Positions 23,525 through 61,100 of a DNA stretch of 64,000 nt are shown one piece after another (the first letter of the stretch is position 1; each line of letters opens with the position of its first letter). The stretch lies in NCBI RefSeq assembly GCF_036588685.1, contig NC_086373.1:15314001-15378000 (forward strand). The letters are read 5' to 3'. The DNA is from Mytilus trossulus. Taxonomy: Eukaryota. The notes under the pieces were generated by a model. That model saw nothing but the letters and a program-made list of their open reading frames with translations. It searched no databases and was not told the DNA's origin. The translations under genes were made by a program, and so were the position numbers.

Positions 23525-24070
23525 TTATTTTTAGCTGTATTTGGCAAATCTTTTAGGAATTTTGGTTCTCAATGCTCTTCAACTTCGTACTTTATTTGGC
23601 CTTTTTAACTTTTTTTGGATTCGAGTGTCACTGATGAGTCTTTTGTAAACGAAATGCACGTCTGGCGTATATACTAAATTTATTCCTGGTATCTATGAGG
23701 AGTTTATTTACAACCACTGGGTCGATGCCACTGCTGGTGGAGATTTATTTCCCCGGGGGTATCAGAAGCCCAGTAGTCAGCACTTTTTGTGCTGACATGA
23801 ATTGTCATTGATATGGTTATATTTATAAATTTACTGTTAACAAAATTTAGAAATTTTTGAAATACTAAGGCTTTTCTACCTCAGGCATAGATTACCTTAG
23901 CTGTGTTTGGCAAAACTATTAGAAATTTTGGTCCTCAATGCTCTTCAACTTCGTACTTTATTTGGCCATTTTATCTTGTTTTGGATTCGAGCGTCACTGG
24001 TGAGTCTTTTGTAGATGAAACAGGCGTATATACTAAATTTAGGTCTGGTATCTATGATGAGTTTATTTAT
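23525..24070 (+). mobile_element. Retrozyme subfamily 2, about 1.5 units (period about 366 bp), mutated HHRs at 23631 and 23997
   Basis: Homology to the monomer. Stem II mismatch in the first core; CTGGTGA and a deletion in the second. Confidence 0.85.
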
Positions 24071-24214
24071 TACCAATTAAAACAATGCTTAAAATGTTTA
24101 CAGTGTTATATTGATCCTATAAGATTCAAACAATTCAATAATCAATAGGTGGACAATGACTATATAAATTTATGGGCTCCACAACCACCTTCAAGGTAAA
24201 AATTAGGATGTGAT

Positions 24215-24682
24215 GTCCTGTTGACAAAACTTTAGAAAATAACTGAGGATCTTTTTATCCCTGGAATAGATTACCGTAGCCGTATTTGGAACAGCTTTTT
24301 GAAGTTTTGGGTCTTCAACTTTGTACTTGTTTGGCTTCATCACTATTTTGACCTGAGCGTCACTGATGAGACTTACATAGACAAAACGCGCGAATGGCAT
24401 ATTAAATTTTAGTCCTGGTACCTTTAATAACTATTAACACCACTGGGTCGATGCCACTGCTGGTGGAAGTTTAGTCCTTGAGGGTATTACCAGCCCAGTA
24501 GTAAGCACTTCGATCTTGACATGAATATCAGTTATATGGTCATTTTTATAAATTTCCTTTGGACAAAACTTAGAATTTAATGAAAATAACTATTTTGATC
24601 TGAGCGTCACTGATGAGTTATGTAGCCGAAATACGAGTCTGGCGTAGATAATTATGATCTTGGTACCTTTGATAACTATTTA
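24215..24682 (+). mobile_element. Retrozyme subfamily 1, degenerate, internally deleted dimer
   Basis: Degenerate HHR motifs at about 24363 and 24610; accactgggtcgatgccactgctggtgg block present. Confidence 0.8.
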
Positions 24683-25039: not shown

Positions 25040-25780
25040 GCGTGACACGAACTTGATCATCATAGGTGGTATCTCAAGTGATCGAAAAAAGAAAGGTAAA
25101 CAGATGGTGAGTATTTAAACCTGTACAAATTCAGCCACACTGGAGGAACATGGTACAGAACTGATATCGTTTGGAAAACATCGGTCGTAATCTGTCACAC
25201 TAACATTCCAACCTGAAAACGGTCGAAGGAATGACCCCAACTTGGAACCCTCAGTTTAATAACTGCATCATAAGCAGCAACTATATATTGGTGAATATAG
25301 CAACTGAATTATTCGGTTTACTTTAGGATCACAAATTGTTGGATAAAACTAGATAGTATTGTATGGAAAATGTTGCTGAACATGGTATTGATGATGGCAT
25401 TCGTAAAAGGTTCGAAGGGATGACTTTGTTGCTGAGCATGGTATTGATGATGACATTCGTAAAAGGTTCGAAGGGATGACTTTGTTGCTGAGCATGGTAT
25501 TGATGACGACATTCGTAAAAGGTTCGAAGGGATGCTGAGCATGGTATTGATGACGACATTCGTAAAAGGTTCGAAGGGATGCTGAGCATGGTATTGATGA
25601 CGACATTCGTAAAAGGTTCGAAGGGATGCTGAGCATGGTATTGATGACGACATTCGTAAAAGGTTCGAAGGGATGCTGAGCATGGTATTGATGACGACAT
25701 TCGTAAAAGGTTCGAAGGGATGCTGAGCATGGTATTGATGATGGCATTCGTAAAAGGTTCGAAGGGATGACTTTGTTTTG
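25040..25780 (-). mobile_element. Penelope-like RT 3' remnant containing a 47/56-bp minisatellite (8 units, 25375-25777)
   Basis: The minus strand gives LLLMMQLLN*GFQ and repeated KSSLRTFYECHH, resembling the LLLTRKLLNQxF..KLKSSLRKFYGRHH segment I recall from bivalve Penelope-like RTs. Confidence 0.55.
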
Positions 25781-28119
25781 CTCACACATTGTCAATTTAA
25801 TTGAATTGTATGCGATTTCAAACAAGTAAGGAGTTTAGCTACAAAACCAGGTTTAAACCAATATTTTTAACAAAGGAAATGTCTGTTCCAAGTCAAGTAT
25901 AAACCTGTTATTTTCATCCGTTTCTGAGCTTTTTATTTTGCATTTGGTTCAGGGACTTTCCGTTTCAAATTTCCAATAGAGTTCTGTATTTTTGTTATTT
26001 TACTTTTAAAATGTTCCATTTGGTTCAATATCGTCCCTGTAAGAAACAACCCTTCATCAATAAAATCATGATAGAAAACATACCATCTTGCACATTGTAT
26101 AAAGTTTAAGATATACTAGTACATACCATAGCTAGGCACTTTTGATACGTTGCTACAGACAGAAATGAAATCTACATTTCTATAGAAAAAATGCCCAACC
26201 TATCTCTATTTTTAATGTACTTTGAAACCTCATATCTAAATTTTAAATTGATGTGGTATATTGCATTATTTACTAAGTAATCAGATATTTGTATGACATC
26301 TCAAAACAATGTGCTTGCACTTAAATTGTGTAGTATTTAACTTAGTTTCTTGATTACTCACTTTATTTAAACCATTATCAAAAATGTTCATTAGGAAAAA
26401 ATAAACCCTTTTTTTCTATATATAAATTGTGGATGCACTATATGAATTGAATCCTAGCTAGTATCTCATACTTGTACGACAAGGCTTACTGTGTCTATTG
26501 CTTCTTTATTGAATAACTTTTTTTAATGTCACAAAAGAGCCATTACCATTGCAATTGTAATTTAAAGCACTAGCAGTGAACACAAAAATATATCTTTAAA
26601 ATCAAACTGAATTTCCTAGTGGTCCTAGTTCACGTCAGAATATCCTCATGACAGAGCATATGCATCTTTGATTGTTGGCATATTTTTCTATTTCTATCTA
26701 TGCATAAGCCTTTCTTGTGAATTCTTAATTTTGAAAATAAGAAATGAGACTAGTTTAAAGTTGCAACCATGAAACATCATTATTCTATCTTTTTGTGAAC
26801 CGTTTTTGCTTTGTAAAATAGAAAAACATTCTGGAAGCTGACATATTGTGACCTATAGTCGTTAATGTCTGTGTCATTTTGGACTTTTGTGGATAGTTCT
26901 CTCATTGGCAATCATACCACATCTTCTTTTTTATATATTGAGCTATTTTATTCGCCACTGGTACATTTGTTTTTAAATATGTTGCGTTATGATATTGAGA
27001 ATACTTCTTCTTAACGAACAATGAATATGTAATCTTAGGAATTATCTGACGGATGTCCGCTTTCTAATTGGTAATGTTTGAGGAACCTGTATATGATATA
27101 TTCATACCGCAAGTGATTTATTATTTTTCCAGAATATATTAACTACAGGTCATCACTTAAGAGATAACAACGACATTGTTAAATCAGTACAGTTAATGTT
27201 ATGGATTGATGTTAAGGTTTAGCATAATACCATATGGATTTGTATTCGAGTTTCCTGTACCCAATTATCAATGCATCATCAAAGCCACACTAATTGCTTA
27301 TTATACTTCAAAAGTCGATTAAAATATGTATCTCATCTAGCCTTTATTAAAACCAATTTATTTATGATTTGTTCAAATATATTGCATTCTCTGATTCAAA
27401 GCTTTGATATTTATTTAATGAGCTTTAACGCTAGTAGAGTAAGTCTTATGTCGGTACCTTGTGTATATTGATTATTAGTAAGTTGACTCGTGCCTAGTAC
27501 CGATTTATTCAGTTAACAAGTTGCAACTGATATGTTCTCAAATTGTGCAGTGACACCGTTCTTCCAGGTAAGCACAAGGGCTGAGTGTTCACAAACATGT
27601 TTAAACCCGCCAAATTCTTTTTCTGCCTGTTCAAAGATAAAAACCTGGTTTTCAGTGGTAGTCGTTGGTCCACGTCTGTCATATTAGTTTTTTTTCGTAA
27701 ATTACTTTGTTATAAATTAGACCGTTGGTTTTAAAATTAAATTGTTTCACATTTTCTATGTCTGGCCTTTTATTACGAGATGGCTTATTCTCATTGTTGA
27801 CGGCAGTACGGTTGCCTATAAGTTCTTGCAACCACCTCATTTGAACTTTGGTGGATAGTTGGCCTATTGGCGATTATTTTACATTTTTTTTTATCATTAA
27901 TAAATCTCTTGTAACCGAGACTTTTTTGTGGTTTCTACCAGGGGCGGATCCAACCATTTTCAAAAATAAAGATTTTCAACCAAGGATAAAAAGCGTGTGT
28001 GTGTGTATTCCATTCATTTCCCCCATTCAAATGCATTGATCGTTATAAAAAGGGTGATTCTAATCCCCTGACCCCTCTGGATATTCCACTGTGTATGCGT
28101 TTTTTTTTTTTATCTATTC

Positions 28120-33405: not shown

Positions 33406-34082
33406 TGACGGAATAGAAAAACTACTAAGAAAGGTAGGCATTGAAAAAGTCAAATTTGTTTTTTCAATTAGATTTTATATCCTGAACACATACTTCATAA
33501 GTGTATGTTGTGCAGCTTATGACCTCACATCTGATACGTTTATTCCGTTTATGCTATTACTACCACATCTGGTGGATTGTTTGTCCCAAATGGTATCACC
33601 AGCCCATTAACCATCACCTCAAAACTGTCATGATAATACGGATATTGTTAATTGAAAATTTCTGTAAAAAATATTGGAAATTATTTGAATTTAAGGAATA
33701 TGTCTCCCTCGAGCATACCTCAGATTTGGCTTTACGTAAGGTTCATTTTGATTTGGTTTTCAATGTTTGAGTTAGTGTTTTAGATTTCAAATATAGTGGC
33801 CTTGAGCATCAATGATAAAACATTAATTGTCGAAATTAGTAAATTAAAATTTGTACCTTTTTAAGTGATTGGTTAATTTACACTACATAAAAGAAAAAAC
33901 ACATCTTTTTATATTTTTCATTGTTTCATAAACTGAGGAATGATTCTTTAAGATAATGATCACATTAGTGTTGGCATTAGTTAGAAGGCTTAGAAACATA
34001 TTTATGCACTATGCGGTGCAGTATAAAAATATGAAGATACATGGAGTTGGCAATGGAACAAAAAGTGTGTTTACCACTTATT

Positions 34083-34227
34083 GGAATTTCAGGTCCTCAA
34101 TACTCTTCAACTTTGTACTTGTTTGGCTTTTATAACTATGTTGATATGAGCGTCACTGATTAGTCTCATGTAGACGAAACACGCGTCTGGCGTATAAATT
34201 ATAATACTGGTACTATTGATAATTATT
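34083..34227 (+). mobile_element. Retrozyme fragment, HHR core mutated (CTGATTA)
   Basis: gagcgtcactgattagtctcatgtagacgaaacacgcgtctggcgt. Confidence 0.8.
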
Positions 34228-35707: not shown

Positions 35708-35835
35708 TCAATGCTCTTCAATTTCGTTCTTTATATGGCCTTTTTTCCATTTTTTTTTATTGGAGAGTCACTGATGAGACTTTTGTAGACTAAACGCGCA
35801 TCTGGCGGAATTACATTATTACAATCATGGTATTT
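35708..35835 (+). mobile_element. Retrozyme fragment (subfamily 2), degenerate HHR
   Basis: caatgctcttcaa...gtcactgatgagacttttgtagactaaacgcgcatctggc. Confidence 0.75.
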
Positions 35836-40854: not shown

Positions 40855-41605
40855 TTTATCAAATACACCAGGCTTATAATTTTGTACGCCAGACGTGCGT
40901 TCCGTTTCAAAAGACCCATAGGTAATAGAAGTTTCAGGGCAAAATAAAATATGACGGTTGTTTTTTGTGTGTGTTTTTTTAAATATTATGTATGGCCAAC
41001 AATGCCAAAAGTTTTACAAAAAAGCTGAGGTTATCTATTCCAGGGAATGAAAATAAAATAGTATTTAAGATAAACTAAAGTTTTGTAAACAGTTTTTTAA
41101 ATTACAGTATTGATGTTTATTCATATCAGCACATAAGTGAATACTACTTGGCTGGTGATACTCTAAGTGAGGAAACATCCACCGGCAGTTGCTTCGACCT
41201 AGCGGTGGTAAAACCAATTCAAAGATACCAGACTTATATTATTGTACGCCAGTTGCGCGTTTCGACTACAAAAGACTCATTAGTGACACTCAAATATATT
41301 CGTTATAAGGCCAAATGAAGTACGAAATTGACGAACATTGAGGGCCAACAATTTCTCAAGGTCTTGTCTAGTATTTCAACCATACAAAGTTTTGTAAACT
41401 GTTAATTTCTAAATTACAATATGTAAATATTTCAAGTCAACAAAGAAGTAATACTACTAGACTGGTTAAACTCTTAGGGATAAAACATGCACCAGCAGTG
41501 GCATAGACCAAGTGGTTGTTAAAGCCATAATACAAGATACTAGATATATACATTTGTACGCAAGACACACTTATTGTCAACAAAAGACTCATCAGTGACG
41601 CTCGA
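40855..41605 (-). mobile_element. Old degenerate retrozyme tandem (about 2.2 units)
   Basis: Three HHR-derived motifs in reverse orientation at about 40890, 41250 and 41560-41600. Confidence 0.75.
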
Positions 41606-41739
41606 AACAAAATATTAAAGATTGAACATTAACAGAGTTATAGGTCAAGCTTTGGTTAGTGGTATATCAATTCTAATTTTTACCCACACATACTTTGTGA
41701 GACGATTTTCGATATGAAATCTTTTATTTCTCTTTATTT

Positions 41740-44300: not shown

Positions 44301-44686
44301 CTAAACTATAATCCTGGTACCTTTGATAACTATTTACACCACTGGGTCGATACCACTGCTGGTGGACGTTTCGTCCCCGAGGGTATCACCAGCCCAGTAG
44401 TCAACACTTCGGTGTTGACAGGAATATCAATAATGTGGTCATTTTAATAAATTTCCTGTTACAGAATTTTGAATTTTTCAAAAAACTAAGGATTTTCTTA
44501 TCCCAGGCATAGATTACCTTAGCCGTATTTGACACAACTTTTTGAATTTTGGATCCTCAATGCTCTTCAACTTTGTACGTGTTTGGCTTTATAAATATTT
44601 TGATATGAGCGTCACTGATGAGTCTTATGTAGACGAAACGCGAGTCTGGCGTACTAAATTATAATCCTGGTACCTTTGATAACTAT
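44301..44686 (+). mobile_element. Solo retrozyme copy (subfamily 1): a 353-bp unit plus a 33-bp terminal direct repeat; intact HHR core at 44615
   Basis: Homologous to the array monomer. ctaaa(c/t)tataatcctggtacctttgataactat occurs at both ends. Confidence 0.9.
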
Positions 44687-45357: not shown

Positions 45358-45663
45358 AATAAACTCATCAAAGATACCAGGGCTAAATTAAGTAATACGC
45401 CAGACGCGCGTTTCGTCTACAAAAGACTCATCAGTGACGCTCGAATCCAAAAAAAGTTAAAAAGTCCAAAAAAAGTTGAAGAGCATTGAGGACCAAAATT
45501 CCTATTAGATTTGCCAAATACAGCTAAGGTAATCTATGCCTGAGGTAGAAAAGCCTTAGTATTTAAAACAAATCAAGTTGTAAACAGTTAATTTATAAAG
45601 ATAACCATATCAATGACAATTCATGTCAGCACAAAATGTACTGACTACTGGGCTTGTAATAAC
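45358..45663 (-). mobile_element. Retrozyme copy (subfamily 2), 5'-truncated; intact HHR at 45397-45440
   Basis: The reverse complement reads gcgtcaCTGATGAgtcttttgtagacGAAAcgcgcGTCtggcgt. Confidence 0.9.
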
Positions 45664-45738
45664 CTCATGTTTGTTTAAAATGTTTTACGTATTTGTAAAG
45701 ACTCTAAGTCTCGTTGCGATGTTCATCGAGAAGAGTAT

Positions 45739-48700
45739 AGTCTTATGTAGACGAAACGCACGTCTGGCGTATGAAATTATAATCCTGGTACTTTTGATAA
45801 CTATTTACACCACTGGGTCGATGCCACTGCTGGTGGACGTTTCGTCCCCGAGGGTATCACCAGCCTAGTAGTCAGCACTTCGGTGTTGACATGAATATCA
45901 ATTATATGGTCATTTTTATAAATTTTCTGTTTACAAAACTTTGAACTTTTCGAAAAACTAAGGATTTTCTTACCCCAGGAGTAGATTACCTTAGCCGTAT
46001 TTGGCACAACTTTTTGGAATTTTTGGTCCTCAATGCTCTTCAACTTTGTATATGTTTTGGCTTTTTCACTATTTTGATCTGAGCGTCACTGATGAGTCTT
46101 ATGAAGACGAAACGTGCGTCTGGCGTATGAAATTATAATCCTGGTACTTTTGATAACTATTTACACCACTGGGTCGATGCCACTGCTGGTGGACGTTTCG
46201 TCCCCGAGGGTATCACCAGCCTAGTAGTCAGCACTTCGGTGTTGACATGAATATCAATTATATGGTCATTTTTATAAATTTTCTGTTTACAAAACTTTGA
46301 ACTTTTCGAAAAACTAAGGATTTTCTTACCCCAGGAGTAGATTACCTTAGCCGTATTTGGCACAACTTTTTGGAATTTTTGGTCCTCAATGCTCTTCAAC
46401 TTTGTATATGTTTTGGCTTTTTCACTATTTTGATCTGAGCGTCACTGATGAGTCTTATGTAGACGAAACGCGCGTCTGGCGTATGAAATTATAATCCTGA
46501 TACTTTTGATAACTATTTACACCACTGGGTCGATGCCACTGCTGGTGGACGTTTCGTCCCCGAGGGTATCACCAGCCTAGTAGTCAGCACTTTGGTGTTG
46601 ACATGAATATCAATTATATGGTCATTTTTATAAATTTTCTGTTTACAAAACTTTGAACTTTTCGAAAAACTAAGGATTTTCTTACCCCAGGAGTAGATTA
46701 CCTTAGCCGTATTTGGCACAACTTTTTGGAATTTTTGGTCCTCAATGCTCTTCAACTTTGTATATGTTTTGGCTTTTTCACTATTTTGATCTGAGCGTCA
46801 CTGATGAGTCTTATGTAGACGAAACGCGCGTCTGGCGTATGCAATTATAATCCTGGTACTTTTGATAACTATTTACACCACTGGGTCGATGCCACTGCTG
46901 GTGGACGTTTCGTCCCCGAGGGTATCACCAGCCTAGTAGTCAGCACTTCGGTGTTGACATAAATATCAATTATATGGTCATTTTTATAAATTTTCTGTTT
47001 ACAAAACTTTGAACTTTTCGAAAAACTAAGGATTTTCTTACCCCAGGAGTAGATTACCTAAACCGTATTTGGCACAACATTTTGGAATTTTTGGTCCTCA
47101 ATGCTCTTCAACTTTGTATATGTTTTGGCTTTTTCACAATTTTGATCTGAGCGTCACTGATGAGTCTTATGTAGACGAAACGCGCGTCTGGCGTATGAAA
47201 TTATAATCCTGGTACTTTTGATAACTATTTACACCACTGGGTCGATGCCACTGCTGGTGGACGTTTCGTCCCCGAGGGTATCACCAGCCTAGTAGTCAGC
47301 ACTTCGGTGTTGACATGAATATCAATTATATGGTCATTTTTATAAATTTTCTGTTTACAAAACTTTGAACTTTTCGAAAAACTAAGGATTTTCTTACCCC
47401 AGGAGTAGATTACCTTAGCCGTATTTGGCACAACTTTTTGAAATTTTTGGTCCTCAATGCTCTTCAACTTTGTATATGTTTTGGCTTTTTCACTATTTTG
47501 ATCTGAGCGTCACTGATGAGTCTTATGTAGACGAAACGCGCGTCTGGCGTATGAAATTATAATCCTGGTACTTTTGATAACTATTTACACCACTGGGTCG
47601 ATGCCACTGCTGGTGGACGTTTCGTCCCCGAGGGTATCACCAGCCTAGTAGTCAGCACTTTGGTGTTGACATGAATATCAATTATATGGTCATTTTTATA
47701 AATTTTCTGTTTACAAAACTTTGAACTTTTCGAAAAACTAAGGATTTTCTTACCCCAGGAGTAGATTACCTTAGCCGTATTTGGCACAACTTTTTGGAAT
47801 TTTTGGTCCTCAATGCTCTTCAACTTTGTATATGTTTTGGCTTTTTCACTATTTTGATCTGAGCGTCACTGATGAGTCTTATGTAGACGAAACGCGCGTC
47901 TGGCGTATGCAATTATAATCCTGGTACTTTTGATAACTATTTACACCACTGGGTCGATGCCACTGCTGGTGGACGTTTCGTCCCCGAGGGTATCACCAGC
48001 CTAGTAGTCAGCACTTCGGTGTTGACATAAATATCAATTATATGGTCATTTTTATAAATTTTCTGTTTACAAAACTTTGAACTTTTCGAAAAACTAAGGA
48101 TTTTCTTACCCCAGGAGTAGATTACCTAAACCGTATTTGGCACAACATTTTGGAATTTTTGGTCCTCAATGCTCTTCAACTTTGTATATGTTTTGGCTTT
48201 TTCACAATTTTGATCTGAGCGTCACTGATGAGTCTTATGTAGACGAAACGCGCGTCTGGCGTATGAAATTATAATCCTGGTACTTTTGATAACTATTTAC
48301 ACCACTGGGTCGATGCCACTGCTGGTGGACGTTTCGTCCCCGAGGGTATCACCAGCCTAGTAGTCAGCACTTCGGTGTTGACATGAATATCAATTATATG
48401 GTCATTTTTATAAATTTTCTGTTTACAAAACTTTGAACTTTTCGAAAAACTAAGGATTTTCTTACCCCAGGAGTAGATTACCTTAGCCGTATTTGGCACA
48501 ACTTTTTGAAATTTTTGGTCCTCAATGCTCTTCAACTTTGTATATGTTTTGGCTTTTTCACTATTTTGATCTGAGCGTCACTGATGAGTCTTATGTAGAC
48601 GAAACGCGCGTCTGGCGTATGAAATTATAATCCTGGTACTTTTGATAACTATTTACACCACTGGGTCGATGCCACTGCTGGTGGACGTTTCGTCCCCGAG

Positions 48701-50432
48701 GGTATCACCAGCCTAGTAGTCAGCACTTTGGTGTTGACATGAATATCAATTATATGGTCATTTTTATAAATTTTCTGTTTACAAAACTTTGAACTTTTCG
48801 AAAAACTAAGGATTTTCTTACCCCAGGAGTAGATTACCTTAGCCGTATTTGGCACAACTTTTTGGAATTTTTGGTCCTCAATGCTCTTCAACTTTGTATA
48901 TGTTTTGGCTTTTTCACTATTTTGATCTGAGCGTCACTGATGAGTCTTATGTAGACGAAACGCGCGTCTGGCGTATGCAATTATAATCCTGGTACTTTTG
49001 ATAACTATTTACACCACTGGGTCGATGCCACTGCTGGTGGACGTTTCGTCCCCGAGGGTATCACCAGCCTAGTAGTCAGCACTTCGGTGTTGACATAAAT
49101 ATCAATTATATGGTCATTTTTATAAATTTTCTGTTTACAAAACTTTGAACTTTTCGAAAAACTAAGGATTTTCTTACCCCAGGAGTAGATTACCTAAACC
49201 GTATTTGGCACAACATTTTGGAATTTTTGGTCCTCAATGCTCTTCAACTTTGTATATGTTTTGGCTTTTTCACAATTTTGATCTGAGCGTCACTGATGAG
49301 TCTTATGTAGACGAAACGCGCGTCTGGCGTATGAAATTATAATCCTGGTACTTTTGATAACTATTTACACCACTGGGTCGATGCCACTGCTGGTGGACGT
49401 TTCGTCCCCGAGGGTATCACCAGCCTAGTAGTCAGCACTTCGGTGTTGACATGAATATCAATTATATGGTCATTTTTATAAATTTTCTGTTTACAAAACT
49501 TTGAACTTTTCGAAAAACTAAGGATTTTCTTACCCCAGGAGTAGATTACCTTAGCCGTATTTGGCACAACTTTTTGAAATTTTTGGTCCTCAATGCTCTT
49601 CAACTTTGTATATGTTTTGGCTTTTTCACTATTTTGATCTGAGCGTCACTGATGAGTCTTATGTAGACGAAACGCGCGTCTGGCGTATGAAATTATAATC
49701 CTGGTACTTTTGATAACTATTTACACCACTGGGTCGATGCCACTGCTGGTGGACGTTTCGTCCCCGAGGGTATCACCAGCCTAGTAGTCAGCACTTTGGT
49801 GTTGACATGAATATCAATTATATGGTCATTTTTATAAATTTTCTGTTTACAAAACTTTGAACTTTTCGAAAAACTAAGGATTTTCTTACCCCAGGAGTAG
49901 ATTACCTTAGCCGTATTTGGCACAACTTTTTGGAATTTTTGGTCCTCAATGCTCTTCAACTTTGTATATGTTTTGGCTTTTTCACTATTTTGATCTGAGC
50001 GTCACTGATGAGTCTTATGTAGACGAAACGCGCGTCTGGCGTATGAAATTATAATCCTGGTACTTTTGATAACTATTTACACCACTGGGTCGATGCCACT
50101 GCTGGTGGACGTTTCGTCCCCGAGGGTATCACCAGCCTAGTAGTCAGCACTTCGGTGTTGACATGAATATCAATTATATGGTCATTTTTATAAATTTTCT
50201 GTTTACAAAACTTTGAACTTTTCGAAAAACTAAGGATTTTCTTACCCCAGGAGTAGATTACCTTAGCCGTATTTGGCACAACTTTTTGGAATTTTTGGTC
50301 CTCAATGCTCTTCAACTTTGTATATGTTTTGGCTTTTTCACTATTTTGATCTGAGCGTCACTGATGAGTCTTATGTAGACGAAACGCGCGTCTGGCGTAT
50401 GAAATTATAATCCTGGTACTTTTGATAACTAT
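45739..50432 (+). mobile_element. Tandem array of non-LTR retrozyme units (356 bp x about 13.2) with 13 type I hammerhead ribozymes
   Basis: CTGATGA occurs at 46089+356n (n=0..12). Each is in the context GCGTCA-CTGATGA-GTCT(TATGT)AGAC-GAAAC-GCGC-GTC^TGGCGT, with loop variants in the first copy. Confidence 0.95.
46439..46482 (+). ncRNA. Type I hammerhead ribozyme (representative copy); predicted cleavage after C46476
   Basis: Stem I GCGUCA/UGGCGU, core CUGAUGA, stem II GUCU/AGAC, GAAA, minimal stem III with palindromic GCGC loop, GUC triplet. Confidence 0.93.
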
Positions 50433-51069
50433 ATGTATGTACAAATTTCTTCAAAAGTTTTACCCAACTGTAGTATGTATTCCTCTCTTCATACTGAACT
50501 ACTGTCATACATTTAAGCTAATTGATTCAGTAAAAGCGTTTTAGTGTGCAGTAAGCACAGTGAATACAAATAATGCCTACCATTCAAGTCTATATTTTCT
50601 AGGTCTATGTCAACAAGTTGAAATAACTAATAAGCAACTGTTTTATTAGGCATTTGCATTGTTTGTAAAGGTCTGACTTGGATATGTAAATTTCTCTCCT
50701 AATGAATTTTATGCATAATAAGTTCAAAGAAAAATCTCAATACATTGAACCCCTAAGAAAATTCAAAACGGAACGTCCTGAATTAAATGGCAAAATCAAA
50801 AGCTGAAACACATCAAACGAATGGACAACAACTGTCATATTCCTGTTTTGGTGCAGTATTTTCTTATGTACAAAAGGGTGGACTCAAATAAATTGTATAG
50901 CTAGCTAAACCTGCCAATACATTGTTCGGTTGGTCAATATGTTTTTTTAAAGGAAGCTATTGTGTAATTTAAATATGGATACTTTTTTTTCTAAACGATT
51001 ACTGATCTGGGGCATTAAAGGGAAATAATTTAAATTCAAGCATTGTACACATAAACCAAATCAAAATTA

Positions 51070-51340
51070 ACAAAATTATGAATTGGTATGCCATACGCAT
51101 GTTTGGTCTACCAGAGACTCATCGGTGACAATAAAAAAAGTCCGAAATGCCAAATAAAGTATGAAGATGCAGAGCATTATGGAAGCACATTTTTCAATCA
51201 AAGGCTGAGGTGAACAATTCCTGGGGTTGATAATCATAAGTATTTTGAATGATTTAAATTTTTGCAAACTAATTATATTTATATTTTGTGCCTTGTCAAT
51301 GATAATAAATGTAAACATAGAAGTACTGATGATACCCTCG
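51070..51340 (-). mobile_element. Degenerate retrozyme fragment
   Basis: gtctaccagagactcatcggtgac...aaataaagtatgaag...gagcatt. Confidence 0.6.
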
Positions 51341-52567
51341 TAATATATAGACGGATCTTCAAAACTTTAATTGTGTCCCTTGATACAACAGTTATTTAAA
51401 AATTTCACTCACCTTCAAAATAATTAAAAAAACAAAAAAAAACACATGATAAATGTTGAACAATTATGGAGATAACGTGAACAGCCCCTGCAAAATGTCA
51501 ATATGAAGGTAGTTAAAAGTTGACAGAACAAAATTCTGCTGTTTATAAAGTTGATTATTTCCGTTTGATATTAGCAAGTTATTAGCTGCTACAAAAATAT
51601 TACAAATGAAAACTTCTTAACAAACAAAGCAATAAATAATTGACAAACAAAACAATGTTTGGAACTAATTATTTATAAAATTTCATAAGAACAGATTTTT
51701 TCATATACAAATCAGACTTTTATAAACCAGTGCATAATATAAGAGTACGCTATTTTCTTATTTTCATTTCATGACACAGTTGATGAGTGTTGGCTTTTGT
51801 TTTTTGTTGCACTTCGGTGTTCCTGTTGCTTTTTGTTTTCCTCTTATAGTTGATGTATTTCCCTCTGTTTTGGTTTGTAACCTGAATTAGTTTTTTTCTC
51901 ATTCGATTTATGACATTTGAACACCGGTATACTACTGTTGTCTTTATTTAGAGACATTTCTGGACACGGATGGTAAGGATTATCCTAATTTCAAAGCTCG
52001 CACTTCACACTAACAACCTTTAACTGAAGCAATGTTTTACTAGATGCTTAGTTAATGTATAAGAATACATTATACAATTGGGTAAAACGTTTTAAGCAAA
52101 TGGTATAGGATAGCCAAAGCCTTCTGGATAACGACAGTAATATTCAGTATTCAAAAGGTTTAGACACAATATATTGTACAGTTGATATTGGCATTACTAC
52201 TTTCATTAAACCACTCATTTTACTTTTTTTAATGAGAAATCTTAAAAAGAACTTTTAAAAAATAAATCGTAAAATAGCACCTCAATCATAGTCGGTATGC
52301 CAAAACCATCGTATATATATCATGAATACATAATGAATATATATACCAAATGCACATGCAACTTGTACGAGTTATCATATACAAATAATAACAAGCATTT
52401 GGGGAAAAGTAGTAAGGAAAGGAGTAGTACTTTTTGCTGTTCTATGCGTCCTTTAATCATATTATTCAAAAAGTAGTATTAACTTAAATGTATCAATATT
52501 TTTTTTACACTTATTTACTGGCTTTTAGAGCAATTTACCTCATTATCAACGAATAGCTAGTGAAAAT

Positions 52568-52830
52568 CAACTTATCATAAATTCATGGATGACATTTTGT
52601 ATTTACGAACAGACGCGCGTTTCGTCTTAAAAAGACTCATCAGTGACGCTCGAATCCAAAAAAGTTAAAAAGACAAAATAAAGTACGAAGTAGAAGATCA
52701 GTGATGACCAAGATTCCTAAAGGTTTTGCCAAATACAGCTAAGGTAATATATTATTGAGGAACAAAACCTTAGTATTTAAAAAATAAAAATTTGTTAACA
52801 GTTAATTTATAAAAATGACCATATCGATGT
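52568..52830 (-). mobile_element. Retrozyme fragment (subfamily 2); HHR core intact, stem I weakened
   Basis: cagacgcgcgtttcgtcttaaaaagactcatcagtgacgctcg at 52610-52652. Confidence 0.8.
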
Positions 52831-53309
52831 TCAAAGAGTTATTCAAAAGGAAGAGCTTGATTTCGGTTTATTGGTTATCGAAGAGCACATAAATATTGAC
52901 GTACGTGTATCAATTCATCATCGCACTCATGATGAATTCCGTTATTTGATACATTTATTGATTCCGTTATCTTATATACTTATTCTATTATCTTATATAC
53001 TTGTGGCTATTTTCACAACATTACATACTTGTGAAATTTAATCTCTATCAGAGAAACAATCATTTGATAGTATAACCTTGACGTCATAGCAGATAAGACA
53101 TCGCAAAAACAGCAATAGTTTGTGCAAGCGTAAGGTTTTCGGTAACGTCCTTTACAAATGAAAATGAGTCCGTAAATTCTACGCATTAGCATAACTTCTG
53201 ACTCTTCCTAGGCCATCTTTTCAATTATAAACCAACATAGAAAACTTAAGACTGAGCAAAACAAACCCTACAAAACCCGTGGTTGATCTCAGCCGCACCA
53301 GAACAAATA

Positions 53310-53730
53310 TTTGATTCAAGTGTCATTTGTGAGTCTTATGTAGACAAAAAGCGCGTCTTCTATACTTATATTACAAACCACGTATATTTGATGAGCTTTT
53401 ACACTATCAGAGTCGAAGTAACCACGAGGGTATCACCAGCCTAGTAATAACTGTACTTTAAATTATATCAGCACTAAAGTTTTTTAATGCATACATAGCC
53501 TTTGGGACAACCTTGGAATTTTTTGTTTTCATACATACACGCTTGTAAGTAAATAGATACCAGGATTAAAAAAAAATGTTTACGCCAAGCCAGGCTCCTA
53601 AAGACTCATCAGTGATGCTCGAGTCTAAAAATGCCAAATAAAGTATGAAGCTTAAAAATGATTGACCCTTCAACCGGTTTTATTTGAGTGACACTGATGA
53701 ATCTAATATAGACGAATTTTTGTCTGGAGA
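53310..53730. mobile_element. Cluster of decayed retrozyme fragments in both orientations
   Basis: gagtcttatgtagac (53331), gagggtatcaccagcctagta (about 53427), gactcatcagtgatgctcg (about 53603), cactgatgaatc (about 53692). Confidence 0.6.
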
Positions 53731-54112
53731 ACAGTTGTCTCTGTGATAATGACATTGTCGGTGGACAGTTTGTGTGAGTATGTATCAATATCCAGTATCT
53801 AGCGCTCCTGACCTGACGTGAAATATCGTAAATGCGGTCGATGTAAATTTAATGTTCATAAAATATTAAAAATTATTGGAAACACTTCTGCATAGTTGAT
53901 CTTGACTAGCTTTGAAAATGAGAAATCAAATCATGAAAGATACCAAAAAGAGAAATTCAAATTCATAAGTTAAAAACAAACTGGAATACGATTAAAAGAC
54001 ATACAACAGTACACGAAACACAACATAAAAAACTAAAGGTAGAGCAAAACGAACCGGTGGTGATATCATGTTTCCATGAAGGCTAAACAGATTCTGCTCC
54101 TGAGATGAAAGA

Positions 54113-54250
54113 CAATTACTTACAAATGTTCTGTTCAATTACTTACAAATGTTCTGTTTAATTACTTACAAATGTTCTGTTTAATTACTTACAAATGTTC
54201 TGTTCAATTACTTACAAATGTTCTGTGCAATTACTTACAAATGTCCTGTT
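54113..54250. repeat. 23-bp tandem repeat, about 6 copies
   Basis: caattacttacaaatgttctgtt. Confidence 0.9.
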
Positions 54251-54520
54251 TGCAAGGATCTTCAACATCGTAATTGGTTTGACATTTAAACTTTTTTGAT
54301 TCAAGTGATAAAGGTGAGTCTTGATTTCAAAACTCGCATCAGGCACACTAGAATATAAGCTGAGAATAATTGACGAATTATGATATCAAACATCAGTCTA
54401 TTTCATTTTTTTTTTTGTAAAATTGTATAACGTTAGTACATATGGATAAAGAAAGACAGTTTAAACTTAACCTTTTTTTGTTTATTTCCTAATGACGACA
54501 AAATGCTGTAAAACAGATAT

Positions 54521-54524
<4 letters not shown>

Positions 54525-54551
<27 letters not shown>

Positions 54552-55250
54552 CAACTCGTCTAAACATCAACCCAACAATGTTAGATCTGTAAATTTGCTT
54601 TCGCAAATTTTTGGTTCTTCCCTCGCCGGGATTCGAACCCATGCTACTGTGATATCGTGACACCAAATCGCCTGCACTGTAGCCGTCCCGCTAGACCACA
54701 CGACCACCTGGGCTCTCAAAAAAAGAGCTTTCGGTGGCCATATGTTACCTTTCCACGTCAGTTTTTAATCTAGCGGCGTACTACAGTACATGATATATAA
54801 GGCATGAAGATGTTATTGTTACAGATCAGCTAAATTATCTATAGTAAAGGATCCTACAAATTAATGTAAGATACAGTCACAGAAAATAATTATATTCATA
54901 AGTACGTCTGAGTCAGTGACAACCCTACAACAGATGTATCCATCGGATCGCCATCGATGATGGTGATACATGGCTGTGTACATAATGTATATACAACTCG
55001 TCTAAACATCAACCCAACAATGTTAGATCTGTAAATTTGCTTTCGCAAATTTTTGGTTCTTCCCTCGCCGTGAAGAACCAAAAATTTGCGAAAGCAAATT
55101 TACAGATCTAACATTGTTGGGTTGATGTTTAGACGAGTTGTATATACATTATGTACACAGCCATGTATCACCATCATCGATGGCGATCCGATGGATACAT
55201 CTGTTGTAGGGTTGTCACTGACTCAGACGTACTTATATATATATATATAT
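54525..55250 (-). mobile_element. tRNA-derived (Pol III A/B box) repeat, 442-bp period, with a 165-bp terminal inverted duplication, inserted in (TA)n
   Basis: Minus-strand A-box-like TGGTCGTGTGG (54706-54696) and B box GGTTCGAATCC (54639-54629). Direct repeat 54551../54993..; inverted arms 54898-55062 and 55072-55236. Confidence 0.85.
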
Positions 55251-57753
55251 CTGTTTTATTTTTCTAAAAGCCAACTGTTAAAAATCAACAAATAAAAGCT
55301 GAAATATCGGAAATTCCTAATTTAATAAAAAAAAAAAAGCATATGTTTTCGTCCGACCAATCCAATTTTTATCTCCTATACCCTAATCAAACGTTTGTCA
55401 TTTTTCCATTAATCACAATTAGAGTCCAAATGCCTCCCAATAAAATTCACTTAGGTAAAACAGAGTACAATAACAAATAAATCATCACCTACCAGCAAAT
55501 AAATGTATATTCCTCCTTAGCGTTTACTTATAACCTAGTACATGTAAATGCAGAGTCCAATACAATATGCTTTAGAGTATTTGCTGGTGAAACTAATTTA
55601 AAAGAGGGGTGATAGATACCAGAGGGACAGTCAAAACCATAGATTGAAAACAAACTGACAACGCCATGGCTAATGTATATTGAGAAATATTTACACAATA
55701 AAAAAACTCAAAGATGCCGGGCGAATAATTGTGTACGTAATAGGCCTGTTTTGTCTACAAAAGACTCATTAGTGACGCTAGTACCATCAAAGAATCAAAG
55801 CCAAATATAAAAAAATAGCTGCAGATCATTGATTGAAATATAACCTCATTAAAGTCTGTAGTACCATTTTGTTTGTACCTCTAATCGGGGACTTTCAATC
55901 AAAAGAGTTATCCGTAATGTATCAAGCGCAAACGTTATTTGACATTTTATTTTGTTCTGATGCGTATTTAATCATTGCCCTTCGACATTTAAACCCTTCG
56001 GCTTTCCAAACTGTTGGTGTCAAGCATACCCGATGTATGTTATTAAAATTTACATTTCTTGTGAACAGGAAAGGGTGTTATAAGTTTGGTCTAACTTATA
56101 TTGGCTGTCTTTCAGTTCCCGAGGTTAATATTCGCCCAATAACCATTGACCCGATTTAAATTATAAAATGTTTCATTCATTAATATTTTAAGTAGAGTCA
56201 AAAGTAGTTTACTTGTGTCCAAATCACAAATCCAATAAATTCACAAAGAAGATAAAAAAAAAAAATACAGAATCGCCAGTACTTCAAAAGCAGGAGACCG
56301 GCACGGTACGTCACAGTTACTGTTTGCACATCATGTATCATTTGCATGTAAATCAACCATTAGTCAAAAGTCACATTTCGGAATAGGGACAAACTTGGTT
56401 TAAAATTAGAAAGCCAAAGATTTAAGACCGTGAAAACATTATGGTAATGTATTTTATCAAACACATATGTTATTGTGCAAAAACTACAACTCTCTCAAGC
56501 CATGTTGACATTAGACTGTTAGGGGGGAACTGTTTAATTTCCTTTGGTATTTATGATGTTTATCATCAAGCATTTTTTTTCATTGATGTGTTGAGCTTAC
56601 CTATTGATGTTCAATGTAAAATTGAGAATGGAAATGATGAATGTGTCAAAGTGACAACAACCCGACCATAAAGCAGACAACATTGATGTTGAAAGAACAT
56701 GATGATTTTTTTTCTAAGCAAAAATGTCGTGCTTAGTATTCTTCATTTCACGAAAGCATCAGTTGGATATATAACATTTTCTTATAAGAATCGTGTTGCT
56801 TTTATACTTAAGTTGCACATAAATACCAATCGACATAGCCAACAAGTGGCACTGTAATAGCTTGCAAAATCTTTAAATTCACATTTTAAAGTAGGATGTT
56901 TGAAAACTTGATAGGTCATTAATGTTAAAAAGTATCGATAAAAATGCAGATCAATATATTTTTATAAAACTTTGATATCACTCTCAAGAGAATTGGCGTC
57001 AAGGGTTTTAAGTGAACTACATTTCCTGTTATTTCAAAGAACAACTGTGTTGCTTTCTAGATGTGCTTTTAATTCTTTATACCAACTCTATTGTTGTACC
57101 ATATAAGACTTAGCCAAGCAATTTTCTCTGTGCTACTTTCAGGATATTGCACAAGACATATCATAACTGATAAGAGTTTTCAATTATAATAATTGAGCAC
57201 CTTTGTACAATGAGTAGTAAAATAACATATACTGAGTCTGAATGTTTACAATGATTGGCATAATGGGAAACTATACAAACATTGCATTTTACGTTTATCA
57301 GTGTTCTTGTCCAAGCAAAGCTTTTAGTAGCTAGTGGAATGAATAGATGTGCCTACTGATGCTGGGATGTATTGACAGCCTCTGATTGGCGAGAAATACT
57401 TCGTCAATTGATACTCATCTCTAGTTCGATAAAGAATAGTAACTACCATCGGGTCATCAATCAAGGAGTTTCACAAGTACCCATTAATAGAATATCTAAA
57501 CTTCAGTCTGGACCGGTCTACCTAGCACTACCACCGGATATTGATTTGATGTCGTATTGCAGGTAAAAATCACCTGTTAAACGCTTCATTTAATTGTACA
57601 TCAGACACAGGACTGTGTTTATGGAACTAATAGGACTTTTCATACAGTATTTATCATATAATTGTAGGCTTAATGTCATTGATTATCAGTAATTTGTGGA
57701 AAGTATGAGAAATATGATACGAAAACATTTTCATCATTCGAAGAATATGAATA

Positions 57754-58125
57754 ATGAGTAATTTTACTTTGGTTGTGTCTTATATTGTAATAAGTGTAAC
57801 AATAGTTATTTCCTATGGAAAACAAATACAATTAAGTGTTATCTGTGATGAATCATTATATAATCTTTGTGCTAAACAAGTGAGAACCTACGAGAAAACT
57901 TATCAAAGATCAACAAACTCTATTGACAATGTAGTATTTCCTATAAAGATTAAGAAAGGAACTAGTGATTTGTTGATAAATTATCAGCAGTTTAACGTTA
58001 ATGATGACTTTTGGAATATATTTGTAGTTTTTGGAGATGACGTGACAACAAATGCCGCTGCAATTGTTGCCACTACCTACCACATACCTATATTCCTGTA
58101 CACAACTTCACAGTGGCACAACAAT
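57754..58125 (+). CDS. First coding exon of a secreted or membrane receptor, possibly an ionotropic glutamate receptor/IR or other ANF-receptor-like amino-terminal domain; the gene continues downstream
   Basis: ATG, then a hydrophobic signal-like stretch (MSNFTLVVSYIVISVTIVISYG), 124 open codons and a perfect gtaagt donor at 58126. IFVVFGDDVTTNAAAIVATTYHIPIFLY resembles the AIFGP...xxIPHI region of iGluR N-terminal domains. Confidence 0.55.
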
Positions 58126-61100
58126 GTAAGTAGTGTTACAATTATTAGCATCCTATTATTTATATGCTGTCAACCCATTTTGAATACAAAGAAAGTTTTA
58201 TAAATACAGCTAGAAATTGCTTTGTCTGTACATGAAATGGTTATCTATATTAAGTTATAAAAACAATGATATAAACTAGAGACATGTCTCTGCAGCAGGT
58301 ATATATATTTTAAGTTATAAGTAAGAAATAAAAGAGAGAGAAAAAAGTAAATGTATTGTCAATTAGATTGTATAGTTAATAGTTGGTGAATCAGACAGAT
58401 CATAGAAGAATAAAAAAGTCAGCGTTGGGATCACTTACGATTTTCTTTTTATTCCAGCTTAAATGTTAGATTCTATTAATAGTCTTTGAAAACATTCCAT
58501 TGCTTTTGTATTTTAAAAGATCACTACGGGAATTAAATCGAAAAAAGCATTTAAAAAATCGAAATTATTTGAATATTGATAAATGAAGTAAAGCAAATCA
58601 ACAAAGTGGGTTAAAATCTAGGACTCAAACACAATTCTTTATTTGTTTTTAATTTTAAACGAAATTGAAATGGCCTCACCATAGTGATTGAAAAACTGAA
58701 GAGAACGGATGGAATATATTTTAAAAATTTTATAGCTATTTCCATTAAAGTACATAATTCATGTTAAAGAAACAAATATAGAAAGATTGTCTAAATCTGG
58801 CCATCTAAATCATTATATTCATTTGTCAATTCTCATTAGTAAATTGAAATCAGGCAGGGAAAATCAATAGAATAGCTATTTAAATTCAACCTTTATTCCA
58901 TAAAATTCAGGTAAAATACGTGAGGCCTCAAGAATCGTATTTACAAATGCCTATGCACAACTCTGATTTTTTTAGTATCATACAGTTCAATATTCATTGC
59001 ACTGGATCAAAAACATAAAAGAACAATTATTATGCAGTTATTGCAATTCTGAAAGATTATTAATCTCATTAGCAATTTTTTATTGAAGTAATTTAGACAT
59101 TATCTACATAAAATTGCAACACAAAACGCTTAACTGTTATCATAAATACCATTATTGTTAAAACAAGGTCATTTCATTGCATCAAAAAACAAACAAATTA
59201 TTTCATAGCTTCAAGAGTATTTTCTTTGGTAAATGGACAACACACCACATCTTCCTATATCTAAAAAGACAAATCGTGTTTTTTTTTCGAACCCCAATCT
59301 CCACACGATGGCCAATAGATTAGCAGATAAAATAAAATATATGGTAGCATAATACCATAGGTTAAGGTCTAACCTTCCCTTTTTACGTATCAAAAGTACT
59401 TTTTAAAATAGGGCTGATAATAGTAGCTTCGACAGCGATGATACTTATTTGAGAAACAGAAGTGGTCCAAAGAGTAATTACTCAGTATAATCATGGAAGT
59501 AATATTTCAATATTACTATTTCAATATTACTTCCATAGTATAATAAAGAACGGTCGGAAAAAAATTAGTCCATCGAAACACGTTTTTTTATTGAACGTAA
59601 ATTTTGACTTACCATTTTGTGAACAGGAATCAATAATCTAGAACCAACCAGTTCGTTCATGAATCTGATCTTAAAACCTGAATAAATAATTGTAAGTTTG
59701 ATAACTAAGCAATTGTCCAAGAATTGCAAAGGCGTGAAACAAATGAAATGTAGACAAACAAAAAACCTAACAAACATGAAAATGTACAATTGAGTGATCC
59801 ACTAAAACATTGAAGCTCCTGTTCCAGGAGGGTTGTAATTGCAGTAAACGGGAACACGGTCAAAATTTTAAAAAGAACAAAAATTTACATTGAAATAGAT
59901 TATGAAAAACCAAACACGTTTTAACTTATGATATTTGAATCGTAAAAAAATCTAAAAATGTAGACGCTTTCAAAATAAAAATTACATTAGAGAAAAAGGA
60001 AGTTCATGATTCGCAACTGCCTCATTTTCTATTTCTTTCATTTTTCAAATTCTCTGATTTCTTTTTGCAGGAAGTACTCATAAAATTTCATAAGTAAGGA
60101 TTTTAATGGGAAACTAGTACAAGAGAAACAAAAGATATTTAAACTCATAAGTCTAAATTTAACTAACAAGTCAATGGGGATGGGGTGGGGGGAATAGAAA
60201 AACGATAACAAAATCCAAAACAACAGAATACAAAACACAACATAGATAACACACAAATGAGTAACGCGAACCAACATCTTCGGATGATAGAAATATACGT
60301 TACTTCCATCTGCTTAATTGCCAGTGTATATAAAGCCAAAGGTCCTATACCAGACATTAGCTTTTGCTCATTATTGAAGGACGTACACTGTCCTGTACTA
60401 GTTGATTTCTGTGGCATTTGGTCTCTTGTTGAGAGTTGTCGCATTGGCAATCATACCAAATAGTATTTTTATGTTATAAATATGGTAGGCTACATGAGTG
60501 GAATGTTTAGAAAGTTACTGTCGAATCCCCCGAAAAGTTTGGCAATATTATTGCGAGAATTTTACATGCTCTTCCTTTAAATTTTATGTACTATTTGTCC
60601 AATTATCTTATAATTTCTCTTTGTTTTTTTTTATCTAGAATAAACAGGATTAAGTTATTATTAACTCGTTTGCGGTTTCGGCTTTCCACTAACTGTCAAG
60701 ATAAAAAGCATGATAAGCACTACTTTAAACAGAATGTCAGTCTTTAAAAATACTTTCAAACATATTGTTTTATATTTCTTTGACATCTGAAAAAAATGTA
60801 TTTGTTTGAATATAAAAGAATAAATGAAAACATTCATGAAAGGTAAACATTGAATAATTTTTTAGTGAATCTCGTTTTATTCTTTAAAATCTAAGATTTA
60901 TTTAAGCAGGCATTATACATTTGGCATGGATGGAATAAAAAAGCAAGAATACATTTGGCATGGATGGAATAAAAAAGCAAGAATAAATGTGTTAATCTAA
61001 TGAAAGTTGAACTAGGTTACTTCATGACGATAAAATTTCCATTTTTTTTATTCATGTTTTAGAATACTCCTTTAATCAGAACTGTACAGAACTTTTATGT

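What the first reader, a model, noticed from the sequence alone, without database searches (positions are those of the whole stretch)
45739..50432. Homogeneous 13-mer retrozyme array: a genomic template for ~356-nt self-cleaved, circular RNAs
Seen: 13 type I hammerheads spaced exactly 356 bp apart, 12 with the identical core and a palindromic GCGC loop on a minimal stem III. Known: such minimal-stem-III hammerheads favour dimeric cleavage in tandem transcripts, and ~350-390-nt retrozyme circRNAs were reported in Mytilus galloprovincialis (Cervera and de la Pena 2020), so the class is not new. Inference: this long, near-identical array is a young and possibly active source locus.
Basis: partly seen in the sequence, partly recalled or inferred. 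Interest (0 to 1): 0.75.

Follow-up and report, generated by a model that had tools for sequence, protein, structure and literature searches.

The report
Mussel retrozyme carries Naiad retrotransposon signal
This is a 13-copy tandem array of a known kind of mussel self-cleaving repeat (retrozyme), and each copy carries a hairpin-like motif also found at the start of Naiad retrotransposons, which likely marks where the Naiad enzyme starts copying and so likely names the helper element these repeats depend on.

Summary
Observation confirmed: 13.2 units of 356 bp, 13 complete type I hammerheads, 12 identical. The class is known (Cervera and de la Pena 2020). 'Active source locus' is not supported: array alleles are 0-14% of family RNA reads in two runs (of another species label), none crosses into the flank, and a perfect 3-unit period shows later duplication. 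New: 11 of 14 family insertions in the window end at +29..+46 after the cut, just 5' of a conserved ~60-nt rod hairpin. A model of that rod hits an intact Naiad Penelope-like element right behind its own 3'-end repeat, and its core starts 12 of 54 published Naiad consensus sequences, including Mytilus. Likely mechanism: Naiad reverse transcriptase binds the rod and starts inside the RNA, so only circular or tandem RNA regenerates a whole unit. Binding and priming are untested. A general retrozyme-PLE link is in a 2026 preprint; the Naiad rod link was not found in print.

The parts
45739..50432 (+). Tandem array, 13.2 units of 356 bp; 5' end inside a hammerhead core (unit position +331), 3' end at +40 after the last cut site; no target-site duplication
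46083..46126 (+). First complete type I hammerhead, two changes (stem II, loop III)
46439..46482 (+). Type I hammerhead, predicted cut after C46476; identical copies every 356 bp up to 50355-50398
46501..50045 (+). Perfect higher-order repeat, period 1068 bp (3 units), 3.3 periods
   Evidence: 2477 identical positions in a row at lag 1068
46833..47188 (+). Unit type with 6 changes (again at 47901-48256 and 48969-49324); other units have 0-2
50084..50141 (+). Predicted rod hairpin (+48..+105 of every unit), homologous to the 5' start of Naiad elements; lies directly 3' of the point where insertions end
50143..50162 (+). Predicted UUCG hairpin (+107..+126 of every unit), 3 of 8 pairs with changes on both sides between subfamilies
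50393..50432 (+). Last 40 nt after the final cut site; 50432 is the fixed 3' end shared by many loci
   Evidence: (loose ends)
44303..44686 (+). Dispersed 1.08-unit copy, 91% identical, from about +10 to +40
45367..45666 (-). Dispersed 5'-truncated copy of subfamily B, 80% identical, intact hammerhead core at 45403-45434
23531..24682 (+). Two neighbouring dispersed multimeric insertions (23531-24058, 24213-24682)
40856..41639 (-). Old degenerate multimeric insertion, about 66% identical
51060..55832 (.). Five more dispersed fragments: 51060-51345(-), 52560-52824(-), 53310-53446(+), 54253-54358(+), 55708-55832(-); two further ones at 33563-33835, 34073-34227 and one at 35708-35835 (+) lie upstream
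50725..50915 (-). Abundant repeat in the right flank that resembles the 3' end of a mussel Naiad (by eye only)
   Evidence: not significant against the L050 Naiad

Best explanation
The array is a tandem run of a mussel-type non-LTR retrozyme whose unit carries a predicted rod hairpin shared with the 5' start of Naiad Penelope-like retrotransposons, and it was likely copied into the genome by Naiad reverse transcriptase starting just 5' of that rod. Steps: (1) family RNA is made from the hammerhead strand (shown for the family, not for this locus). (2) Slow hammerhead cleavage and host RtcB-type ligation give circles and partly cut multimers (from PMC7229834, not tested here). (3) A Naiad RT-endonuclease would bind the rod, nick DNA and start cDNA 1-7 nt upstream of the rod, inside the RNA (inferred from the fixed 3' ends, the same geometry in Naiad, and internal initiation shown for another PLE). 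(4) Because the rod lies 3' of the start point it is copied only after a full round, so only circular or tandem RNA can yield a competent daughter; early stops give the 5'-truncated dispersed copies (inferred). (5) The first insertion had at most about 7 units; a 3-unit block was then duplicated twice, likely at the DNA level (period shown, cause inferred).
For: Fixed 3' ends: 11 of 14 window insertions end at +29..+46, 5' ends are scattered; the best-kept ones end 1-7 nt before the rod; 161 and 52 RNA reads leave the unit at 50432 into mixed sequence, agreement 0.42 and 0.47. In diverged subfamily C the end is at +33 but again 5-6 nt before the rod. Rod more conserved than the body: 57/66 against 131/200; 92-94% of cells paired, 0 of 500 shuffles as high. 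Model R1, built from retrozyme copies only, hits L050 at 38 bits, E 2e-6 in a 2.2-Mb assembly. L050 is an intact Naiad: N-terminal GIY-YIG above Pfam's cut-off, CxC, GPKF, DKA, RT; its 91-nt terminal repeat ends immediately before the rod. The array unit aligns to it at +23..+140, score 50 against at most 46 in 200 shuffles, nothing once the rod is masked. The exact core CTGCTGGTGGA occurs 11 times in the 584-kb supplement of PMC8557442, each at the 5' start of a Naiad consensus, with M. galloprovincialis and M. coruscus among them; one more runs over a line break: 12 of 54 Naiads, 8 of 11 bivalve ones. PMC11167929: a Poseidon PLE starts inside its RNA, downstream of the hammerhead, needs about 55-60 nt 3' of the start, and does not need cleavage.
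Against: No binding, priming or cleavage was tested. No full-length Naiad from the window's own genome was seen (no genome held; only a weak tblastn piece, E 0.005). Rod loci were found with rod patterns, which inflates conservation. Covariation is modest: 2 of 25 pairs with two-sided change in A2 (435 of 500 shuffles as high), 5 of 31 in A4 (84 of 500), 6 of 25 in a model-fitted alignment (11 of 500). The Naiad rod has the same predicted topology but ordinary stability (z -0.54). Some copies end 3' of the rod instead (L012, L015, window 53446). Internal initiation was shown for a Poseidon, not a Naiad. Reads cannot tell circles from tandem transcripts. No pile-up of read ends at the cut site.
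Confidence: 0.7

Rival explanations
1. The rod is only inherited from a Naiad ancestor, or acts as an internal promoter or stability element; another PLE (Neptune or Poseidon type) or a LINE does the copying.
For: The core is conserved mostly as primary sequence; PMC8557442 mentions an internal promoter in the 5' region of Penelope; hammerheads are typical of non-Naiad PLEs; canonical C-terminal-endonuclease PLEs occur in the same assembly as L050.
Against: 3' ends track the rod rather than the cut site across subfamilies and coincide with the Naiad unit boundary; no poly(A) or simple-repeat tail at the ends; no rod in 26 other RT loci apart from two retrozyme copies, a weak control since most lack their 5' ends.
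Confidence: 0.15
2. The whole array grew at the DNA level (unequal exchange) from a 1-2 unit insertion; it is a young satellite and not a long cDNA.
For: Perfect 3-unit period; one unit type with 6 changes against 0-2 (P about 0.004-0.06); other family copies in the window are short; the rod alone forms a 23.5-copy satellite in L018; the 2026 preprint favours local amplification.
Against: Units 2 and 13 are identical across the array, and the ends are those of one retrotransposition event (+40 and 5'-truncated). This rival changes the history of the array, not the origin of the family.
Confidence: 0.3
3. One reading: this array is an active master locus that supplies the circular RNA pool.
For: 12 intact hammerheads, low divergence, likely polymorphic insertion; the family is expressed, 1956 of 8.7 million records in X21.
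Against: Array alleles in RNA: 50138 11/739 and 1/129; 50218 12/486 and 0/47; 50339 12/326 and 1/36; 50401 11/513 and 10/134; 50324 38/306 and 3/21; 50296 53/387 and 10/68. No RNA depth on the unique flank. In DNA run X1 these alleles have 5-37 times (at 50296 over 100 times) the depth that 13 units could give, a rough bound, so they mark a subfamily and not this locus. 8 of 9 predicted Xenopus dimers did not cleave.
Confidence: 0.25
4. The 3-unit period is an assembly or polishing artefact and the true array is shorter.
For: Three identical 1068-bp blocks; no read or contig spans the array.
Against: No indel in 4.7 kb points to accurate long reads; the 3' junction exists in run X1 (contig 50411-50662, 0 differences, only 22 letters on the array side).
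Confidence: 0.1
5. A Helitron-like DNA element with a fixed 3' end, no target duplication and rolling-circle arrays.
For: Fixed 3' end, no duplication, tandem copies.
Against: Ends vary by several bases and do not read CTRR (motif recalled) in subfamilies A, B or C; homology is to a retroelement.
Confidence: 0.02

Closest known systems
Mytilus galloprovincialis non-LTR retrozyme (Cervera and de la Pena 2020, PMC7229834)
   Same: 350-390-bp tandem repeats, type I hammerhead with 2-bp stem III, two similar families, RNA on the ribozyme strand, hammerhead not the predicted ground state in the circle.
   Different: Sequence identity could not be tested (supplement unreadable). The parts read do not describe a fixed 3' end, a rod or a partner; the 2020 review says these repeats show no conserved motif that points to the helper element.
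Naiad Penelope-like elements (Craig et al. 2021, PMC8557442)
   Same: Same rod at the same position relative to the 3' end; 5' truncation, partial tandems, often no discernible target duplication.
   Different: Naiads encode endonuclease and RT and lack canonical hammerheads; the retrozyme encodes nothing and has a hammerhead. The passages read do not mention the rod.
PAc, Poseidon PLE of Anolis (Frangieh et al. 2024, PMC11167929)
   Same: Order hammerhead, internal RT start, required RNA 3' of the start.
   Different: Other PLE clade, autonomous; no sequence comparison was made.
Xenopus retrozymes as non-autonomous PLEs (Li et al. 2026, 10.64898/2026.07.22.740005)
   Same: Retrozymes related to PLE termini; arrays also grow locally.
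   Different: Vertebrates, Neptune and Poseidon; no molluscs, no initiation site, no structured motif.

Membership tests
Non-LTR retrozyme | Tandem 150-450-bp repeats with a type I hammerhead in each unit | tested here: met
Non-LTR retrozyme | No coding capacity, GC below 50% | tested here: met
   frame 1 peptide finds only 6 short proteins without Pfam domains
Non-LTR retrozyme | Transcribed on the ribozyme strand | tested here: met
   Family level: first mates on - outnumber + about 2-7 fold per bin in X21; reads run from unit end to unit start (226 in X21, 42 in X24)
Non-LTR retrozyme | This locus itself is transcribed | tested here: inconclusive
   Array alleles rare, flank uncovered, but RNA runs are of another species label
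Non-LTR retrozyme | Self-cleavage and circular monomer RNA | not testable with these tools
   No end pile-up at the cut; shown for a mussel repeat in PMC7229834
Non-LTR retrozyme | Target-site duplication longer than 4 bp (optional) | tested here: not met
   Longest shared flank word is 7 nt and lies far from both junctions
Rfam RF00163 Hammerhead_1 | Score at or above 34 bits | tested here: not met
   33 bits, E 1e-5, whole model matched
M. galloprovincialis retrozyme family | Sequence identity to MN642551-MN642576 | not testable with these tools
   Records and supplement not available
Non-autonomous partner of Naiad | Shared sequence with the autonomous element at the RT start region | tested here: met
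Non-autonomous partner of Naiad | Fixed 3' end at the same point as Naiad, variable 5' end | tested here: met
Non-autonomous partner of Naiad | Intact Naiad in the same genome | tested here: inconclusive
   No genome held; Naiad-like 3' fragments by eye; Naiads listed for two Mytilus species
Non-autonomous partner of Naiad | Mobilisation by Naiad protein | not testable with these tools
   Needs an in vitro assay
Naiad (for locus L050) | N-terminal GIY-YIG with upstream CxxC, KR block, CxC, GxKF, DKA, RT, no canonical hammerhead | tested here: met
Ambisense viroid-like RNA | Ribozyme on both strands | tested here: not met
   Minus-strand look-alike has core CUGGUGA and 1 of 8 stem I pairs

The most novel reading that the evidence does not exclude
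Mussel retrozymes are circular-RNA parasites of Naiad retrotransposons. A rod RNA motif, conserved at the 5' start of Naiads from bivalves to hemichordates and a fish and absent from Rfam, is the RT loading and internal-initiation signal. Because it sits 3' of the start point, the parasite must be circular or tandem to be copied whole, which would explain why it keeps a hammerhead that its helper lacks.
Probability: 0.55. Interest if true: 0.8.

Novelty: new variant of a known kind. Interest (0 to 1): 0.6.

Why it matters
The array itself is ordinary. What matters is the partner: which enzyme spreads animal retrozymes has been left open, with the stated reason that no telling motif was known (PMC7761336). 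A shared rod at a defined start point names a candidate (Naiad), gives a minimal RNA and an intact protein for a direct in vitro test, offers a reason for circularity, and points to an undescribed conserved RNA element in Penelope-like elements, whose mechanism is barely known.

Tried and rejected
Rfam at gathering: 0 matches in the window; rod region: 0 matches up to E 10. Antisense hammerhead look-alike at 45863+356k: rejected, it is the reverse strand of the rod. Whole unit is no more stable than shuffles (z -0.12 and -0.29). Collection scans: viral contigs 0 matches; genome contigs gave a chance hit L001 and 0 for the subfamily A/B hammerhead; 7 of 16 metagenome loci were unrelated chance matches. 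Protein search with a unit peptide found no partner. Subfamily C hammerhead absent from the window. AT-rich target preference not shown: flanks 0.65-0.90 against 0.67; (TA)n preference is not listed for mussel Naiads, so it is not used. Flank repeat against the L050 Naiad: not significant, 18 of 200 shuffles. One search used a mis-registered structure and is discarded; one search replaces it. One line (rod pair probabilities) was mis-indexed and is corrected. Earlier findings: nothing. Lunse 2017 was not held.
Full report
1. Observation. The array is real and lies where stated: 45739-50432, period 356, 13.2 copies, 98% matches. There are 13 complete hammerhead cores, 12 of them identical, with cut sites exactly 356 bp apart, plus a truncated half core at the 5' edge. 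Rfam Hammerhead_1 matches the whole model at 33 bits, one bit under its gathering score, E about 1e-5 (nothing at gathering). Stem III is two pairs with a GCGC loop; the 8-mer ACGCGCGU is self-complementary, -13.3 kcal/mol as a duplex against -5.7 for the monomer fold. Stem I has a predicted pairing probability near 0 in the circle and in a 2.2-mer, so cleavage is likely slow.

2. Class. PMC7229834 (results and discussion read, parts 2-4 of 6 of the main section; supplement unreadable) describes 350-390-bp hammerhead repeats in Mytilus galloprovincialis, cleavage of a cloned repeat at about 0.1/min, abundant circles and RtcB ligation. The unit fits that description. Identity to their sequences could not be tested, and the host is inferred as a mytilid mussel from content alone. 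The dimer rule is stated for short stem III in general (PMC4209133, passages), but PMC7229834 ascribes the need for dimers to amphibians.

3. Inside the array. The 11 variable columns repeat perfectly every three units over 46501-50045. Rolling-circle copying of one monomer cannot give that; two extra 1068-bp blocks were likely added later at the DNA level to an insertion of at most about 7 units, though a trimeric template or an assembly artefact is not excluded. The 7 non-redundant units differ by 12 changes in 2492 bp, 6 of them in one unit. There is no target-site duplication.

4. Expression and age. Of 24 runs listed, 4 were laid on 50050-50900. The family is expressed: 1956 of 8.7 million records in X21, mostly from the hammerhead strand, and 623 of 12.7 million in X24. 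Reads pass from unit end to unit start (226 and 42), which fits circles or tandem transcripts alike; no ends pile up at the cut. Neither run covers the unique flank. At six positions where the array differs from the expressed majority, the array allele makes 11/739, 12/486, 12/326, 11/513, 38/306, 53/387 in X21 and 1/129, 0/47, 1/36, 10/134, 3/21, 10/68 in X24 (41 of 115 rows were shown). In DNA run X1 the same alleles far exceed what 13 units could give, so they mark a subfamily. The RNA is of organism C and the best DNA holder of organism A, so the source-locus idea is unsupported and not refuted. X1 holds the 3' junction and may be the source sample; in X2 a 509-nt contig matches the flank only from 50431, likely an allele without the array.

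5. Fixed 3' end. The window holds 13 further insertions. The best-kept copies end 1-7 nt before a predicted rod hairpin at +48..+105. RNA reads confirm many loci ending at +40 (161 and 52 loose ends). A cut linear monomer would give only 40 nt of cDNA from that point, so longer copies need a circle or an uncut tandem RNA (inference).

6. The rod across subfamilies. A metagenome scan gave 16 loci, 9 of them family members; genome scans added L018 and L019, likely host DNA in symbiont assemblies of deep-sea mussels by their record titles. Subfamily C has a different, minimal hammerhead but keeps the rod: 57/66 identity against 131/200 for the body, end at +33, 6 nt before the rod. These loci were found with rod patterns, which inflates the contrast. 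The structure is paired in 92% (A2, 16 rows) and 94% (A4, 10 rows) of cells, above all 500 shuffles, but pairs changed on both sides are few (2 of 25; 5 of 31) and within shuffle range by count of pairs. It has no Rfam match.

7. The partner. Model R1, built from retrozyme copies only, found 26 matches in the two assemblies: 23 in a rod-only satellite, 2 retrozyme copies and one on G002:C49 at E 2e-6. That contig (L050) holds a 1019-codon open frame with all Naiad marks listed in PMC8557442 section 6; close relatives are abundant (one cluster of 3599 members). Its 91-nt terminal repeat ends immediately before the rod, and the ATG follows the rod: the same geometry as the retrozyme. The array unit aligns there and nowhere else in the element. 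With the Naiad row fitted to the model, 6 of 25 pairs change on both sides (leans to the model); the Naiad rod folds to the same topology with ordinary stability. In the supplement of PMC8557442 (text searches and part 1 of 59 read) the exact core CTGCTGGTGGA occurs 11 times in 584,131 characters, each at the 5' start of a Naiad consensus (Crassostrea, Saccostrea, Tegillarca, Pinctada, both Mytilus, Gigantidas, three hemichordate families, one fish); Ostrea shows it across a line break. That is 12 of 54 Naiads and 8 of 11 bivalve ones, and no hit in the Chlamys or Hydra files on the given strand. A control over 26 other RT loci found only two retrozyme copies at E below 0.05, but most of those loci lack their 5' ends.

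8. Mechanism. PMC11167929 (parts 1-2 of 4 read) shows that a Poseidon PLE starts reverse transcription inside its RNA, downstream of the hammerhead, needs RNA 3' of the start and does not need cleavage. Read across, Naiad protein would load on the rod and start just 5' of it. The rod is then copied last, after a full round, so the parasite gains from being circular or tandem. Shown here: array anatomy, family expression, fixed ends, homology and geometry shared with Naiad. Inferred: binding, priming, template form, DNA-level duplication. Confidence 0.7.

9. Novelty. The class is known, and a general retrozyme-PLE link is argued for Xenopus in 10.64898/2026.07.22.740005 (parts 1-3 of 5 read; no mention of initiation, mussels or hairpins). 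The review PMC7761336 (passages) states that no conserved motif points to the helper. Searches for retrozyme+Mytilus, Mytilus+hammerhead ribozyme, retrozyme+Penelope+target-primed, retrozyme since 2021 (38 of 43 listed, listings only), Naiad+Penelope-like+hammerhead, Naiad+retrozyme and Naiad+non-autonomous+bivalve gave no paper describing the rod or the Naiad link; subscription journals, Repbase and unread supplements are not covered. Verdict: an ordinary array of a known family, with a new and testable lead on its helper. Interest 0.6.

Noticed in passing
L018:4960-6716; also L008:921-1066, L015:1195-1340: The 74-nt rod module alone is tandemly amplified, 23.5 copies in L018, directly after a subfamily C hammerhead. 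L012, L015 and window 53446 end just 3' of the rod, a possible second start site.
   Followed up: partly
window 44303-44686; L010; L019; L068:2030-2377: Four copies are one unit plus about 25-40 nt and begin at +4..+10, just after the cut site; RT may run off a hammerhead-cut 5' end. Small, selected sample.
   Followed up: partly
window 50725-50915 (-) and 25836-26009 (+): Abundant repeat sharing several 11-16-nt words with the 3' end of the record before Naiad_Bpla in the supplement of PMC8557442 (by file order the M. galloprovincialis Naiad); compared by eye.
   Followed up: partly
window 46833-47188: One unit type carries 6 changes, 5 of them to A on the + strand; 8 of 11 variable columns in the array change to A. 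Not seen in the paralogs viewed; unexplained.
   Followed up: partly
window 45863 and every 356 bp (-): Minus-strand hammerhead look-alike without stem I; it is the reverse strand of the rod.
   Followed up: yes
window 4539-5181 (-): Two frames of a broken LINE-type reverse transcriptase (RVT_1).
   Followed up: partly
window 6636-7079 (+): Exon with a weak WD40 match; resembles the start of WDR18 (recalled, untested).
   Followed up: no
window 18185-19442, 21866-22350, 25486-25769, 54113-54250: Other minisatellites with periods 30, 73, 47 and 23 bp.
   Followed up: no
G001 and G002 (L018, L019, L050-L073): These symbiont assemblies contain many animal retroelement contigs (13 and 38 RVT_1 matches), likely host contamination in a prokaryote genome collection.
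   Followed up: partly
window 57751-58203 (+): 150-codon open frame with a hydrophobic start, no Pfam match; possibly the first exon of a membrane protein gene.
   Followed up: no
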